From Escherichia coli (GTDB lineage Bacteria > Pseudomonadota > Gammaproteobacteria > Enterobacterales > Enterobacteriaceae), in the NCBI RefSeq assembly GCF_016903815.1, contig NZ_CP069973.1: 64,000 bases of DNA; one strand, 5' to 3'. Of this stretch, positions 34,301-40,300 are shown piece by piece. The number at the start of each line of letters is the position of its first letter. Within the stretch, counting starts at the first letter, position 1. The position numbers are program-made.

Positions 34301-37300
34301 GATCAATATCAACAAGGTCAGAGAGGAAGTTATGTCACTGACCCGGGCATATTTCGGGGAGCTGCAGGCATCCATTGAGCAGGATATTAACCAGCCCGTC
34401 CGCCAGGAAATCGATGCCTTTTTCTGCGCATTCAGGGAGAAAGTTGAACAACTGCGTAACACGCTGATTCAGAGCTCTGAAGATCATAAACGCGATCAGC
34501 AGGCGCAGGAACGGCTTACCGGGCGACTTCAGGCATTAAATGAAAGGGTTCCTGAGCTCATTACTGACAGTAAGGCGCTGAGGGAAGAGCTGGAGACAAT
34601 GCTGTGACTTCACCATTTATTCAACAAATTGCTGATAACCGGGTATGTCAGGTACTCACCTGTCTTCCTGAAAAATTTGTGGTTGATTTCGCAAACGGAA
34701 TCGATGTTGCACAGGAGCATATCCGCACGGCCGGAGAGCGCACGTTCTTCCGGCGTTTAAAAGAGGGGCTGACCGGCGAAGGCGCTGCACGGCAGAATGC
34801 CATCAATGCGTCGCTTGCACAGGGCGTTGAGGCGTCCCTGCGCTGGCTGACGGAGATGACAACGTCACTTGCCACCACAAACTACGCGATTACCCGGGTA
34901 AACGACAGGGTCAGTTCACTGGTCAGTGATACAGCCAGGCTGGCGCATTATTCCGCAGATACGCGGGAGCAGTTACTCACCCTGGCCGATCAGGTTCACC
35001 ATAAACTGAATCATCTTGAAGAAAAACTCCACCGTGTTGACCAGGTTCAGCGGGCGCAGTTACATCTTGAGCAGATATTCTCATGGTGGAGCGCCGGGCG
35101 ATATGCGTCATTTTCCCCTGCCGGACGTTGTTATGTGGCACTTGAAGAGCTTCGCTGGGGCGCGTTTGGTGATGTGATACGTCAGAGCGAAACAGGCCAG
35201 GTTAACCAGCTACTGGATATTCTCAGACATAAAGCATTAACGCAGATGGCACAGGAGAGTGGCGGTAGTGCAACCGTGCGTCTGAACACTCTGGACTGGC
35301 TTGGTGGTCAGGGCCGGGAGCAGGCAGATAACGAGTGGCATGACGCGATTAACTGGCTGGGAGACTGGTGCAGTGAAGAGCAGCATCCGGTGATCTGGTC
35401 AACCACGCAGGCTGCAGAACACTTACCGGTTCGCATGCCTCGCCTCTGCTCTGCAGAACGCCTCTCTGAAAGTATGGTCGATGAAATATTTCAGAAGGGG
35501 GCTGCATGAGTACAGAAATGAAAACGGGGCTGGTGCTGTCCGGTGGCGGGGCGGTGGGCGCTTATCAGGCGGGAGTGGTTAAGGCACTGGCAGAGTGTGG
35601 TACACAGATCAGCATGGTTTCAGGGGCCAGCATTGGCGCATTCAATGGTGCCATTATCGCGGCCTCTCCCGATCTGTCAGAAGCTGCCGTACGCCTGGAG
35701 GCGCTCTGGGATCATCTGGGGAATAATCAGGTGCTGTCGGTAAACAGATTGGTTTACTTTTCATTGCTGAAAAAATTGTTCCAGGCAATGAACCTCTGCC
35801 AGATCCCCGGACGTGCAGGAGCACTGCTTACGACGCTTCTTCGCCATATATCGACAATCAACGGGTTTGACAATCTGATGGCTCAGCCGTTGTTGTCAGA
35901 TGAGCCCCTGACAGCGCTGATGGATCATTATCTTGATACTGATGCTCTGGCAGACGGGCTACCGCTGTATGTGTCGCTGTACCCCACAGAAGGGGGCATG
36001 CAGGATATTATTGACTGCATTCGTGCTGAACTGGGTGTCGGAACCACGAAAAACGCCGTTTTTCAGCATATCCAGAGCCTGCCCCGCGGACAGCAGAAAG
36101 AGGCTCTGCTTGCGTCAGCCGCGCTGCCCCTGCTGTTCCGTCCCCGTGAGGTTCAGGGGACAATGTTCGGTGATGGTGGTATGGGAGGATGGCGAAATAT
36201 GCAGGGAAATACCCCTGTGACGCCTCTGGTCGATGCCGGATGCAATATGGTGATTGTGACGCATCTGAGTGACGGTTCTTTATGGGATCGCCAGGCTTTT
36301 CCGGACACCACAATCCTTGAGATCCGTCCCCGGAAAAGGCTGAAATATGCAGGTGATGGTGGCAACAGCGGCGGTCTGCTCAGTTTTACATCGGCACATA
36401 CCGACGCCTGGCGTCAGCAGGGCTATGAAGACACGATGCTGGCGATGGAGCATATCCGGAAACCGCTGGCAGCACGTCAGGCACTGACCCGGTCAGAGGC
36501 GGTATTGCAGAAAAGCCTGGATATAACGGAAGAGGCAGATTTGGCACTGAGAAACGCGATGGCCCGGATTAAATAAAGACGCCCCAAAGAAACGCCACCG
36601 CCTGTGGTGGTGTTTTTCCTGTCTGGTGTTATTGAAAATATTTTCAGATATATATTACCTGAGAGAAAGTTTTACCCCTCACCTGTCAATTCACTCACTG
36701 GAAATTTAATTATGAAATTACCTGTAAAGTTATTAATGAGCCTTATATCTCTGGTCAGCGTTATTGCACGTGCCGGGGAATATAAAAATTACAGCCGGGA
36801 TGAAATAAAATACTGGCGATATACATCATACAAGGGGGGGAAACTTCCGGAAGGTTTCACTGATGAGAAATTTTCCAGCGCCATTTACAACGGAAGAATA
36901 TTTACAATGAAACGTTTACATACCCTTATGTTATTTCTGGCGGTTCTGTTCACGGGCTTTAACTTTAACGCAGAAGCGGCTACCGTAAAACAAGCTCTTA
37001 GTTGTAACCCAGAAGCCTGGGCTGAACAACCTGGAGCGTGTCCATCAACGTACGAGTTGTACGAAGGTGACGCTACCTACAAAGCCGCTATCGACAAAGC
37101 ATTAAAACCGGTCGGACTGAGCGGCATGTTCGGTAAAGGCGGCTATATGGATGGCCCTGGTGGAGGTATCACGCCAGTAAACATTAACGGTACAGTCTGG
37201 TTCCAGGGCGACGGTTGCAAAGCCAATACCTGCGGCTGGGACTTTATCGTAACACTCTATAACCCAAAAACCCATGAAGTTGTTGGCTACCGTTACTTTG

Positions 37301-40300
37301 GTTTAGATGACCCGGCCTACCTGGTTTGGTTCGGTGAAATTGGCGTGCATGAATTCGCGTATCTGGTGAAAAACTACGTAGCTGCGGTTAACTAATTTAA
37401 GGAGTCTATCATGAAAACTTTTATCAAAACTTTACTCGTTGCTGTAACTATTCTGTTCTCTGTCTTCGCTACTGCGAAACAAGTAAAACTGCCAAATAAC
37501 ATCAAATACGTTAATACTACAGAAGCGTTTTCCTGTACCGAAATTGACGGTATGAATTGCCAGACAAAGAATCAGTTCAACTATAAAGATAACAGCTATG
37601 TTTTCGTGCTTGAACGTGGTGGTGCCTGGTGCTACGACTACACTGTCTCGGTAGTTAACCTGAAAACCGGGAAAGCACAAATGATTGAATACGGGGACAA
37701 TCAACTGTGCTCAGGTAGCAACAAACCGTTCTTCGAAATCAAAAATGGCGTACCGACGGTAGGAGTCATCGACACATCCGGAAAACCTGTCGTTGTAGCC
37801 CAGGACAAACTTAAAATCTAAGGAGTAAACCATGCGTTTCTCTGCACATTATTAATATCAAAGGTAAATACAGCCCCAGCCATTGTTACCGGAAAGCCGC
37901 TTAATGCGTGGCTCGCCAGTGAAAGGCCTCTCAGACAATAAACCTTATTCATTTCACCCGTCAGGCCGCGTCTTCTCCGGGAGACGCGGCTTTTTTCATT
38001 TATTGCACCAGTAAATCTTAACCACCGATAAGGAGCAAAGTATGCGATTAGCAAGTCGTTTTGGTTATGCTGCAAACCAGATACGCCGTGACCGTCCGCT
38101 GACACATGAAGAACTGATACGCCATGTACCCAGTATTTTTGGGGAAGACCGGCACACCTCCCGCAGTGAACGGTATGCGTACATTCCCACCATTACCGTC
38201 CTGGAAAATCTGCAGCGGGAAGGCTTTCAGCCGTTCTTCGCCTGCCAGACCCGTGTGCGCGACCCGGGCCGCCGGGGATACACAAAACACATGCTGCGTC
38301 TGCGGCGGGCCGGAGAGATAAACGGAGAACATGTCCCTGAAATTATTCTGCTCAACTCTCATGACGGTACCTCCAGCTACCAGATGCTGCCGGGTTACTT
38401 CAGGTTCGTCTGCCAGAACGGGTGCGTCTGTGGCCAGTCTCTGGGGGAAGTGCGTGTTCCACACCGGGGAAATGTAGTGGAGAAAGTTATCGAAGGGGCT
38501 TACGAGGTGGTGGGCGTGTTTGACCGGATAGAGGAGAAGCGTGATGCCATGCAGTCGCTGGTCCTGCCGCCACCGGCACGCCAGGCGCTGGCACAGGCGG
38601 CACTGACTTACCGTTATGGTGACGAACATCAGCCCGTCACCACCGCCGACATTCTGACGCCGCGACGCCGGGAGGATTACGGTAAGGACCTGTGGAGCGC
38701 ATATCAGACCATCCAGGAGAATATGCTGAAAGGCGGGATTTCCGGTCGCAGTGCAAAAGGAAAACGTATCCATATCCGGGCCATTCACAGCATTGATACC
38801 GACATTAAGCTCAATCGCGCATTGTGGGTGATGGCAGAAACGATGCTGGAGAGCCTGCGCTGATGCCGTTTCCCTGAGTGAGGGAATCATTCAGCTTTCG
38901 TTCCTGAAAAACACACATTTATTTGTTATTTAAGGAGTTATCTCATGAAAACCGTTTCTCAGAATACCCCCACAATTTATTCAGCTACAACACCAGAGAA
39001 TAATCCGCCTCAGTTGGTTGCCAGCCTCGTCCCTGATGAACAGCGCATCAGCTTCTGGCCGCAGCATTTTGGCCTCATTCCACAGTGGGTGACCCTGGAG
39101 CCCCGTGTCTTCGGCTGGATGGACCGTCTGTGCGAAGACTACTGCGGTGGTATCTGGAATCTGTACACCCTGAACAACGGCGGGGCATTTATGGCACCCG
39201 AACCGGATGACGATGATGACGAAACATGGGTACTGTTCAATGCCATGAACGGTAACCGCGCTGAAATGAGCCCGGAAGCCGCCGGTATTGCCGCCTGTCT
39301 GATGACGTACAGTCATCATGCCTGTCGTATGGAGAATTATGCCATGACGGTCCATTATTACCGGTTGCGGGATTACGCCCTGCAGCATCCGGAATGCAGC
39401 GCCATTATGCGCATCATCGACTGAATGGAGAGAAGCACAATGCAACAACTTTCCTTTCTGCCCGGAGAGATGACGCCCGGCGAGCGCAGCCTCATTCAAC
39501 GGGCCCTGAAAACCCTGGACCGCCATCTTCATGAACCCGGCGTGGCCTTCACCTCCACCCGTGCAGCACGGGAATGGCTGATTCTGAACATGGCGGGACT
39601 GGAGCGTGAAGAATTCCGGGTGCTGTATCTGAACAACCAGAATCAGCTGATTGCCGGTGAAACCCTCTTCACCGGCACCATCAACCGCACGGAAGTCCAT
39701 CCCCGGGAAGTGATTAAACGCGCCCTGTACCACAATGCCGCTGCCGTGGTACTGGCACACAATCACCCGTCCGGTGAAGTCACACCCAGTAAGGCAGACC
39801 GGCTTATCACCGAACGTCTGGTACAGGCACTGGGCCTGGTGGATATCCGGGTGCCGGACCATCTGATAGTCGGTGGCAACCAGGTTTTCTCCTTTGCCGA
39901 ACATGGTCTGCTTTAACCCGTCACAACCACATCACACCTGTTTTCACTTTTATCTTCTGTCTTCAGAGGTATCCCATTATGAAAATTATCACCCGTGGTG
40001 AAGCCATGCGTATTCACCAACAACATCCGACATCCCGTCTTTTTCCGTTCTGTACCGGTAAATACCGCTGGCACGGCAGTGCTGAAGCGTATACCGGTCG
40101 TGAAGTGCAGGATATTCCCGGTGTGCTGGCCGTGTTTGCTGAACGCCGTAAGGACAGTTTTGGTCCGTATGTCCGGCTGATGAGCGTCACCCTGAACTGA
40201 GTGGGAATTCTGATGAGCAGAATTATCGCCACTACCGGACCATTCTTAGCCGATTTTCTGTAAGGATTTTATCGTGTCAGACACACTCCCCGGGACAACA

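What the first reader, a model, noticed from the sequence alone, without database searches (positions are those of the whole stretch)
36907..37821. Two small signal-peptide proteins in an AT-rich segment immediately downstream of the patatin gene
Both ORFs (162 aa and 136 aa) start with classical signal peptides and contain paired cysteines; the first has a CKxxxCG loop reminiscent of the Ivy lysozyme inhibitor motif. The local sequence is visibly more AT-rich than the flanking genes, suggesting separately acquired cargo. They could be periplasmic immunity or accessory factors for the phospholipase, or unrelated secreted cargo.
Basis: partly seen in the sequence, partly recalled or inferred. 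Interest (0 to 1): 0.5.

Follow-up and report, generated by a model that had tools for sequence, protein, structure and literature searches.

The report
Phage-derived Ivy-like periplasmic protein pair
Two small exported proteins sit beside a phospholipase operon in an E. coli genomic island; they are a fragment of a giant-phage gene array, and the first is an unrecognised, divergent relative of the bacterial lysozyme inhibitor Ivy rather than a partner of the phospholipase.

Summary
ORF-A (36907-37395, 162 aa) and ORF-B (37411-37821, 136 aa) are real genes under purifying selection. Each has a Sec-type signal peptide and four invariant cysteines. They lie in a 44% GC segment between 53% GC flanks.

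ORF-B belongs to an uncharacterised family (phrog_8968) with no similarity to known inhibitor folds.

The pair is not tied to the dynamin/RdcB/patatin operon:
- Terminator-like hairpins bracket it.
- The same A-B pair sits inside a conserved array of small exported proteins in about 222-kb SPN3US-like jumbo-phage genomes that lack the operon.
- E. coli strains keep the operon with an empty slot or with an IS-disrupted ORF-A.
- Patatin has no signal peptide.

Truncated neighbouring genes at both ends mark the island copy as a captured fragment.

The most likely function of ORF-A is periplasmic inhibition of a peptidoglycan-cleaving glycosidase. The target is unknown and the function is inferred, not shown.

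The parts
36596..36620 (+). Terminator-like hairpin plus T-run, 20 nt after the patatin stop codon. It is conserved in three island variants.
   Evidence: 7 pairs, 5 GC, TTTTT tail; invariant in the alignment of window, O146 and L003 variants
36712..36906 (+). 65-codon 5' remnant of a different signal-peptide gene (180 aa when intact), fused in frame to ORF-A. This is the source of the 227-aa RefSeq call.
   Evidence: PGAP CDS of 684 nt; intact 180-aa homologue in L003 9098-9640, 49% identity; in-frame TGA in the O146 variant
36907..37395 (+). ORF-A, 162 aa. A divergent Ivy-superfamily periplasmic protein with signal peptide codons 1-24 (36907-36978) and a weak GGAAG Shine-Dalgarno sequence 10 nt upstream.
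37216..37236 (+). Codons for the C104-K-A-N-T-C109-G loop. It aligns with the CKPHDCG active-site-plugging loop of Ivy.
   Evidence: HMM alignments place it on ACKPHDCG of 1GPQ; allelic variants CKAHACG, CKANACG, CKSNACG, CKSDACG
37399..37404 (+). AAGGAG Shine-Dalgarno sequence for ORF-B, 6 nt before its ATG. The A-B spacing of 15 nt is conserved in island and phage copies.
37411..37821 (+). ORF-B, 136 aa. An exported all-beta protein of an uncharacterised family (phrog_8968), with a signal peptide of about 22 residues.
37832..37855 (+). 7-codon stub (MRFSAHY*) with its own AAGGAG. It is the remnant start of the 129-aa exported-protein gene that follows B in the phage array.
   Evidence: 36 nt, 86% identical to the B-stop/RBS/start junction of L012, E=2.5e-7; sequences printed
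37963..37998 (+). Strong terminator-like hairpin (13 pairs, 8 GC) plus T-run, before the DUF932 gene.

Best explanation
ORF-A and ORF-B are a captured fragment of an array of small exported proteins. This array is conserved in SPN3US-related jumbo phages of Enterobacteriaceae, in the order YfjT-like, 131 aa, A, B, 129 aa, 158 aa, 202 aa, SMC-like. The fragment sits in the variable cargo slot between the dynamin/RdcB/patatin operon and the DUF932-antirestriction-RadC-CbeA/CbtA module of a CP4-44-type E. coli island.

Shown:
- Both are conserved protein-coding genes with Sec-type signal peptides.
- ORF-A has the Ivy fold and is a remote sequence relative of Ivy.
- The pair is evolutionarily and structurally independent of the operon.

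Inferred: after export and cleavage (AEA|ATV), ORF-A folds in the periplasm with two disulfides (C33-C45 and C104-C109). [quoted passage not shown] The loop (CKANTCG) lacks the His and Asp of CKPHDCG, and the gene comes from a phage. The target is therefore more likely a phage or bacterial muramidase or lytic transglycosylase than vertebrate c-type lysozyme. Such an enzyme could be a virion-associated cell-wall hydrolase of a competing phage, making ORF-A a functional analogue of T4 Spackle. ORF-B is a second exported protein of the same array. Its activity is unknown, and ORF-A does not depend on it, because one common island variant has A without B.
For: Ivy relationship:
- 21 of 27 profile-detected relatives match Pfam Ivy at E<=1e-3.
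- A profile built from them hits 1GPQ/1XS0 at E=1.2e-13 and 1UUZ/4PS6 at about 1e-9, with the loops aligned.
- BLASTP gives E=7e-23 to a Klebsiella plasmid protein that PGAP names 'Ivy family c-type lysozyme inhibitor' and that carries Pfam Ivy.

Phage origin:
- The A-B pair is embedded in the same gene array on 220-225 kb IMG/VR viral contigs and a 222-kb 'plasmid'.
- Ten consecutive genes of that array are homologous and syntenic with SPN3US gp176-186.
- GC content of the slot equals that of the phage.
- Truncated neighbouring genes at both ends of the island copy, plus a YfjT remnant in another island variant.

Independence from the operon.

Selection.

Mechanistic precedents:
- The Ivy loop is essential for inhibition (PMC4262234, citing Abergel 2007).
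- The periplasmic phage protein Spackle inhibits the T4 tail lysozyme (PMC7677548).
Against: - No biochemical or genetic data exist for either protein.
- The Pfam Ivy HMM does not hit ORF-A even at E<=10.
- The His conserved in canonical Ivy, and in about 20 of 24 distant relatives, is Asn in this allele and in most phage alleles. The loop may therefore no longer plug a glycosidase active site.
- ORF-A is interrupted by ISEc12 in an ST131-type lineage and ORF-B is missing in the commonest variant. Selection in the island setting may therefore be weak, and the dN/dS signal could largely date from the phage setting.
- No promoter was identified upstream.
- If translation starts at 36712, the second hydrophobic segment might act as a stop-transfer anchor and leave the Ivy domain in the cytoplasm.
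Confidence: 0.6

Rival explanations
1. A and/or B are periplasmic immunity or accessory factors of the dynamin/RdcB/patatin system, needed to neutralise or assist the phospholipase.
For: In E. coli chromosomes, A almost always lies directly downstream of patatin: patatin+A is contiguous in 2232 genomes, and A is present in 2332. A distant B-like protein (35% identity) occupies the same slot in another island variant. The operon, reported together with unspecified neighbouring genes ('five genes on island 8'), is strongly up-regulated in Kapi1 lysogens of E. coli MP1 (PMC12922286).
Against: Patatin, RdcB and dynamin have no signal peptide, so a periplasmic inhibitor is in the wrong compartment. 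A conserved terminator-like hairpin separates patatin from the pair. An intact operon exists with an empty slot, with other cargo and with IS-disrupted ORF-A. A+B occur in at least five jumbo-phage contigs without the operon. The synonymous divergence of A and B is far greater than that of the operon genes.
Confidence: 0.05
2. ORF-A is a conventional Ivy-type inhibitor of animal c-type lysozyme. It gives island-carrying E. coli extra lysozyme tolerance in the gut, alongside chromosomal ivy and mliC.
For: It has the Ivy fold and a C-x4-C-G loop with the conserved Lys. One widespread allele has CKAHACG with the His. The gene is carried by 43% of complete E. coli genomes, many from human or animal hosts.
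Against: The canonical CKPHDC motif is reported as strictly conserved among the inhibitory Ivy proteins and essential for their activity (PMC4262234). Here P, H and D are all replaced. The gene's home is a lytic-type jumbo-phage genome, where host lysozyme is an unlikely selective agent.
Confidence: 0.15
3. ORF-A keeps the Ivy scaffold but has a different periplasmic role in the phage life cycle. Examples are timing lysis by holding the phage's own endolysin or SLT in check, or binding a non-enzyme envelope target. The island copies are passengers.
For: The His is lost in the phage/E. coli clade. A sits in an array of several unrelated small exported proteins of unknown function. An SLT-domain protein lies 7 kb downstream in the phage.
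Against: The disulfide loop, the flanking Gly-Trp and the strand geometry are invariant, which suggests the loop is still the functional site. No direct evidence supports any alternative ligand.
Confidence: 0.15
4. In the island the two genes are non-functional relics of a phage fragment, on their way to decay.
For: Neighbouring array genes are truncated at both ends. B is lost in one variant, A is split by an IS in another, and the slot is empty in a third. No promoter was predicted.
Against: Both ORFs are intact and at least 99% identical in about 1370 complete genomes. Distinct alleles are maintained in several island variants with dN/dS 0.16-0.22 between island alleles. Ribosome-binding sites are retained.
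Confidence: 0.1

Closest known systems
Ivy (inhibitor of vertebrate lysozyme; Pfam PF08816; E. coli YkfE, PDB 1GPQ/1XS0; P. aeruginosa Ivyp1, PDB 1UUZ)
   Different: Identity is only 17-21%, and the Pfam HMM does not detect ORF-A. The loop is CKANTC instead of CKPHDC, with no Pro, His or Asp. ORF-A has an extra N-terminal segment with a second conserved Cys pair (C33, C45). It is encoded on a phage and a genomic island rather than in the core chromosome. No activity has been tested.
'Ivy family c-type lysozyme inhibitor' proteins of 154-316 aa on Klebsiella IncF-type plasmids and in diverse proteobacteria (the CE[AP]HNCG group, e.g. L018 4998-5945)
   Same: These are the closest named relatives (33% identity, E=7e-23). 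They share the N-terminal C...CPY disulfide motif and the C-x4-C-G loop. The Klebsiella copy also sits in a GTPase...DUF905-type island module.
   Different: Their loop is mostly CExHNC, with the His kept. Some carry an extra C-terminal domain of about 160 aa. They are not paired with a B-type gene.
T4 Spackle (gp61.3), a periplasmic superinfection-exclusion protein that inhibits the gp5 tail lysozyme
   Same: A phage-encoded, signal-peptide-bearing, disulfide-containing small periplasmic protein. It offers a plausible shared logic: blocking a cell-wall hydrolase in the periplasm.
   Different: The fold is unrelated (alpha-helical bundle) and the mechanism is allosteric rather than loop insertion (PMC7677548). 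The analogy is functional and untested.
SPN3US gp180-gp183 and phrog_8968 / phrog_5248 / phrog_9424 (uncharacterised small exported proteins of jumbo phages)
   Same: ORF-B is a member of phrog_8968 (E=2.6e-45) and a homologue of SPN3US gp182. Gene order around it is conserved between SPN3US and the L008-type phage.
   Different: SPN3US has a non-Ivy protein (gp181) at the position of ORF-A. None of these proteins has a known function.

Membership tests
Ivy (PF08816) | Sec signal peptide, periplasmic location | tested here: met
   The n/h/c regions and the AEA|A cleavage motif can be read from the sequence; hydrophobic core has mean KD 2.53. No dedicated predictor was available and export was not shown experimentally.
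Ivy (PF08816) | Ivy fold (five-stranded antiparallel sheet with flanking helices) | tested here: met
Ivy (PF08816) | Direct match to the Pfam family HMM | tested here: not met
   No Pfam hit even at E<=10. There is also no NCBIfam hit.
Ivy (PF08816) | Sequence homology through intermediate sequences or profiles | tested here: met
   21 of 27 relatives hit PF08816 at E<=1e-3. The profile of A5 hits 1GPQ at E=1.2e-13. BLASTP gives E=7e-23 to a Pfam-Ivy-positive Klebsiella protein.
Ivy (PF08816) | Disulfide-closed C-x4-C loop between two beta-strands, followed by Gly | tested here: met
   C104 and C109 are invariant in 27 sequences. The loop is aligned onto CKPHDCG of Ivy and lies between strands 96-104 and 112-118 of the model. 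The disulfide itself is inferred.
Ivy (PF08816) | CKPHDC consensus with the His that engages the lysozyme catalytic residues | tested here: not met
   The window allele has CKANTC. Alleles are CKAHAC, CKANAC, CKSNAC and CKSDAC. The motif requirement comes from PMC4262234, citing Abergel 2007.
Ivy (PF08816) | Inhibits c-type lysozyme (and/or lytic transglycosylase) in vitro | not testable with these tools
   Needs purified protein and enzyme assays.
MliC/PliC, PliG, PliI lysozyme inhibitors (considered for ORF-B) | Characteristic beta-barrel or beta-sandwich inhibitor fold | tested here: not met
phrog_8968 (uncharacterised phage protein family; ORF-B) | Full-length match to the family HMM | tested here: met
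   E=2.6e-45, residues 1-131 on profile positions 1-133 of 135. tblastn hits 44 jumbo-phage genomes.
Immunity/accessory gene of the dynamin-RdcB-patatin operon | Obligate co-occurrence with the operon | tested here: not met
   The operon occurs without A/B or with IS-split A. A+B occur without the operon in phage contigs.
Immunity/accessory gene of the dynamin-RdcB-patatin operon | Same cellular compartment as the enzyme it would act on | tested here: not met
   The patatin N-terminus runs straight into the GGGAVG motif with no hydrophobic leader. A and B carry signal peptides.
Immunity/accessory gene of the dynamin-RdcB-patatin operon | Co-transcription with the operon | tested here: inconclusive
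   A terminator-like hairpin lies at 36596-36612, but no promoter was predicted downstream of it and no transcript data were examined at this resolution.
Spackle-type superinfection exclusion | Phage-encoded periplasmic inhibitor of a virion cell-wall hydrolase | not testable with these tools
   Phage-encoded and signal-peptide-bearing features are met. The Spackle fold is not shared: the ORF-A model has the Ivy fold, not the alpha-helical bundle described for Spackle (PMC7677548). Activity is untested.

The most novel reading that the evidence does not exclude
Ivy-fold proteins have been recruited by jumbo phages, and by phage-derived cargo in E. coli islands that also carry defence-like genes. 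In this reading they act as periplasmic inhibitors of the virion-borne muramidases or transglycosylases of competing phages. That would be a Spackle-like superinfection-exclusion or anti-phage function built on a different fold. The several anciently diverged alleles (loops CKANTC, CKAHAC, CKSNAC, CKSDAC), shuffled by recombination, would reflect different enzyme targets. ORF-B and its paralogues in the array could be further inhibitors of envelope-breaching enzymes.
Probability: 0.2. Interest if true: 0.7.

Novelty: new variant of a known kind. Interest (0 to 1): 0.5.

Why it matters
A gene annotated 'hypothetical protein' in about 43% of complete E. coli genomes, including O104:H4, O157:H7 and ST131 backgrounds, turns out to be a second, highly divergent Ivy paralogue of phage origin with a non-canonical inhibitory loop.

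If it inhibits a peptidoglycan hydrolase, the known range of proteinaceous lysozyme and transglycosylase inhibitors would extend to phages and mobile islands. That would also give a simple, testable candidate for a periplasmic anti-phage or superinfection-exclusion factor.

The result also bears on the neighbouring operon. The dynamin/RdcB/patatin operon, currently discussed as a possible defence system, does not come with a dedicated periplasmic immunity pair. Experiments on that operon need not carry these genes along.

Finally, it documents gene flow from lytic-type jumbo phages into chromosomal islands.

Tried and rejected
Direct searches that found nothing:
- Single-sequence searches gave nothing for either protein in Pfam, NCBIfam, PADLOC or PDB sequences.
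- A profile of the close family alone put Ivy only at E=1.4.
- The word-indexed homologue searches returned almost only E. coli sequences.
- tblastn of ORF-A against the INPHARED phage collection found nothing. The phage link came only through ORF-B, synteny and IMG/VR.
- The search for related loci with the diverse alignment A5 failed for lack of a conserved stretch.

Positive selection as the cause of the high A/B divergence was rejected. dN/dS is 0.12-0.26 and the synonymous sites are near saturation, so the mosaic pattern is better explained by recombination between old alleles.

The 227-aa RefSeq gene model was rejected as a chimera.

No sigma-70 promoter was found between the patatin terminator and ORF-A.

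Literature limits:
- The primary Ivy papers (Abergel 2007, PMC1847508; Clarke 2010, PMC2865275) are not held, so motif statements rest on secondary citations (PMC4262234, PMC3660660).
- No paper mentions the RefSeq accessions of these proteins or SPN3US gp182/183.
- The supplement of PMC12922286 that might show whether A/B are among the 'five up-regulated genes' is not held.

The costly GTDB genome scan was not run, because the co-occurrence question was already answered.

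
Full report
**Setting.** The window is an E. coli genomic island of the CP4-44 type. The stretch 36560-38040 is 100% identical to many complete genomes, including O104:H4. At least 80% of it is present in 1882 of 5426 complete E. coli genomes.

The local gene order is as follows:
- an IS21 transposase
- a 387-aa hypothetical protein
- a YeeP-like GTPase
- a CrfC/RdcA-like dynamin (32211-34607)
- an RdcB/YjcZ-family protein (34604-35509)
- a patatin-like phospholipase (35506-36576)
- the two small ORFs
- DUF932, an antirestriction protein, RadC/YeeS, YeeT, CbeA and CbtA

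**The observation.**
- ORFs of 162 aa (36907-37395) and 136 aa (37411-37821) are present.
- Both begin with a short basic n-region, a 13-15-residue hydrophobic core and a small-x-small cleavage motif (AEA|ATV and ATA|KQV). Their hydrophobic cores score 2.5-2.9 on the Kyte-Doolittle scale. The N-termini of patatin, RdcB and dynamin score 0.9-1.5.
- Each mature protein has four cysteines, invariant across the family alignments.
- The segment 36577-38041 is 43.9% GC, against 52.9% and 53.9% for the flanks.
- Allele comparisons give dN/dS of 0.12-0.26 at synonymous distances of 0.6-2.0, so both are genuine protein-coding genes.

**Gene model of ORF-A.**
- RefSeq annotates a 227-aa protein starting at 36712.
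- Homologues at 58-81% identity are 160-161 aa and start at MKRLH.
- The extra 65 codons are 49% identical to the start of an intact 180-aa signal-peptide gene. That gene precedes ORF-A in another island variant (L003 9098-9640).
- In the O146 variant the same remnant carries an in-frame TGA.
- Upstream of the ATG, phage copies and L003 have stop-GGAG-spacer-ATG. The window keeps a weaker GGAAG.

**ORF-A is an Ivy-superfamily protein.** Direct searches fail in Pfam, NCBIfam, PADLOC and PDB sequences. Five other results agree on the assignment:
2. An exhaustive profile search found 58 relatives. Of 27 aligned sequences, 21 match Pfam Ivy at E<=1e-3.
3. A profile of that alignment hits Ivy in the PDB at E=1.2e-13 (1GPQ/1XS0) and about 1e-9 (1UUZ, 4PS6). 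The loop aligns residue for residue.
4. ORF-A aligns at 33% identity (E=7e-23) with a 315-aa Klebsiella plasmid protein. PGAP names that protein 'Ivy family c-type lysozyme inhibitor', and it carries Pfam Ivy.
5. Even the shallow family profile places Ivy among its top four PDB hits, with the loops aligned, though at E=1.4.

**What is not Ivy-like.**
- The inhibitory loop of Ivy, CKPHDC, is reported as essential and strictly conserved among inhibitory members (PMC4262234 and PMC3660660, citing Abergel 2007).
- ORF-A has CKANTCG. Its alleles have CKAHACG, CKANACG, CKSNACG and CKSDACG.
- The distant relatives mostly have CE[AP]HNCG, with the His retained.
- ORF-A and its relatives also have an additional N-terminal Cys pair (C33 and C45, in a C...CPY context), which is nearly invariant.
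- The fold and the disulfide loop are therefore conserved, but the canonical motif and its His are not.

**ORF-B.**
- The AF2 model (pLDDT 72) is all-beta with seven strands.
- Foldseek against AFDB finds only E. coli and Salmonella 'secreted' or uncharacterised proteins.
- ORF-B matches phrog_8968 at full length (E=2.6e-45). The 129-aa protein that follows it in phage copies belongs to phrog_5248 and hits phrog_8968 weakly, so the two are distant paralogues.
- tblastn finds ORF-B homologues (35-37% identity) in 44 phage genomes, mainly SPN3US-like Salmonella and Erwinia jumbo phages.

**Origin of the pair.** The A-B pair (58-76% identity to the window) lies in the order YfjT-like, 131 aa, A, B, 129 aa, 158 aa, 202 aa, SMC-like 834 aa. 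This order is found in three kinds of record:
- metagenomic scaffolds
- a 222-kb Enterobacter 'plasmid' made almost entirely of hypothetical genes
- four IMG/VR viral contigs of 107-225 kb, plus a fifth (L027, 152 kb) that breaks off within A

Further evidence links the pair to these phages:
- Ten consecutive genes of this region are homologous and collinear with SPN3US gp176-gp186, at 31-54% identity. SPN3US has a non-Ivy protein at the position of ORF-A.
- These elements have 44-45% GC, the same as the island slot.
- After the ORF-B stop, the window keeps the AAGGAG and the first codons of the 129-aa gene (37832-37855, MRFSAHY*). This stretch is 86% identical over 36 nt to the phage junction.
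- The L003 island variant keeps the phage-type junction upstream of ORF-A.
- Another island variant keeps a C-terminal YfjT remnant.

The island copies are therefore truncated fragments of the phage array.

**Relationship to the patatin operon.** In E. coli chromosomes the association is strong. ORF-A is detectable in 2332 genomes, and patatin plus ORF-A are contiguous in 2232. However, this reflects the spread of one island family. The evidence against a functional link is as follows:
- A conserved terminator-like hairpin follows patatin, and a strong one follows ORF-B.
- The operon proteins have no export signal.
- Strain 10159 has an intact operon followed directly by DUF932.
- pB39_V has the operon followed by a YfjT remnant, a DUF4339 membrane protein and a 35%-identical B-like gene, with no ORF-A.
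- An ST131-type strain has ORF-A split by ISEc12 while the operon and ORF-B are intact.
- The commonest variant has ORF-A without ORF-B.
- Between island variants the operon and DUF932 genes are 91-99% identical (dS 0.03-0.5), whereas ORF-A is 70-80% and ORF-B 62% identical (dS 0.8-1.4). The divergence is confined to the A and B gene bodies. This is the signature of allele replacement by recombination.

**Function.** What is shown is identity, ancestry, likely export and purifying selection. What is inferred is activity. The conserved disulfide loop on an Ivy scaffold suggests that ORF-A plugs the cleft of a peptidoglycan-cleaving glycosidase. [quoted passage not shown]

Loss of His and Asp, together with a phage home, make a vertebrate lysozyme target less likely than a phage or bacterial muramidase or lytic transglycosylase. 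T4 Spackle is a precedent for a periplasmic phage protein that blocks a virion lysozyme (PMC7677548).

There are three caveats:
- E. coli Ivy is only a weak lytic transglycosylase inhibitor (PMC10139938).
- The island copies show signs of dispensability.
- No expression data at this resolution were available. A recent transcriptome reports strong induction of the neighbouring operon in a lysogen but does not resolve these genes (PMC12922286).

**Verdict.**
- The Ivy lead is confirmed at the superfamily level.
- The phospholipase-immunity idea is not supported.
- The pair is phage-derived exported cargo.
- ORF-A is a new, unannotated variant of a known inhibitor family with an altered loop.
- ORF-B belongs to an uncharacterised phage family.
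- Interest is moderate: the finding gives a clear and cheap experimental test, and links jumbo phages, genomic islands and cell-wall hydrolase inhibitors.

Noticed in passing
window 36712-37395; RefSeq WP_000775500.1 (L001 12153-12836): The RefSeq/PGAP 227-aa gene model is a chimera. It joins 65 codons of a decayed 180-aa signal-peptide gene in frame to the 162-aa Ivy-like gene. The product would carry two signal-peptide-like segments.
   Followed up: yes
L011 (NZ_CP134650.1, Enterobacter ludwigii 'plasmid unnamed1', 222,441 bp); L008, L012, L023-L027: This record is filed as a non-mobilizable plasmid with no replicon type. It is collinear with SPN3US gp176-186 and matches 220-225 kb IMG/VR viral contigs. 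It looks like a jumbo-phage genome (or a phage-plasmid) rather than an ordinary plasmid.
   Followed up: partly
H66, H92, H96 (e.g. NZ_CP074785.1 770001-770109); P0014: In some RefSeq/UniRef records the divergent ORF-A allele (P0014 type) is named 'DNA polymerase III subunit gamma/tau'. This looks like an annotation error.
   Followed up: no
L008 8598-9551; L019 4894-5067: Two tandem YfjT-family (PF27224) exported proteins head the phage array, and a YfjT C-terminal remnant sits in the island slot of pB39_V. From my own knowledge, not checked here, yfjT is also cargo of the CP4-57 island in E. coli K-12. If so, several 'y-gene' exported proteins of CP4-type islands may share this jumbo-phage ancestry.
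   Followed up: partly
L018 (Klebsiella michiganensis p2562_1) 2727-6266: A 315-aa Ivy-family protein with an extra C-terminal domain of about 160 aa lies in a GTPase / WYL-domain / ... / DUF905 module analogous to the CP4-type island backbone. Ivy-like cargo therefore recurs in this class of element.
   Followed up: partly
window 31082-31993 versus L001 6563-7434: The YeeP-like GTPase upstream of the dynamin gene is an intact 303-aa ORF in the window. It is annotated as frameshifted in O104:H4 and is split or truncated in several other variants.
   Followed up: no
window 40731-40994: The CbtA toxin ORF is only 87 aa with an aberrant C-terminus. The identical locus in O104:H4 is annotated as frameshifted cbtA, while the cbeA antitoxin (40274-40642) is intact.
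   Followed up: no
window 37822-38041: The intergenic stretch with the strong terminator upstream of DUF932 is shared by many paralogous islands. This explains why 4193 genomes (median 2, up to 15 places each) match part of the 36560-38040 query, while only 1882 have the whole of it.
   Followed up: partly
window 29874-31037: A 387-aa ORF upstream of the GTPase has no hit in NCBIfam or PADLOC. A homologue was detected only in L001 among the loci compared; the other island variants gave no hit at E<=1e-5.
   Followed up: no
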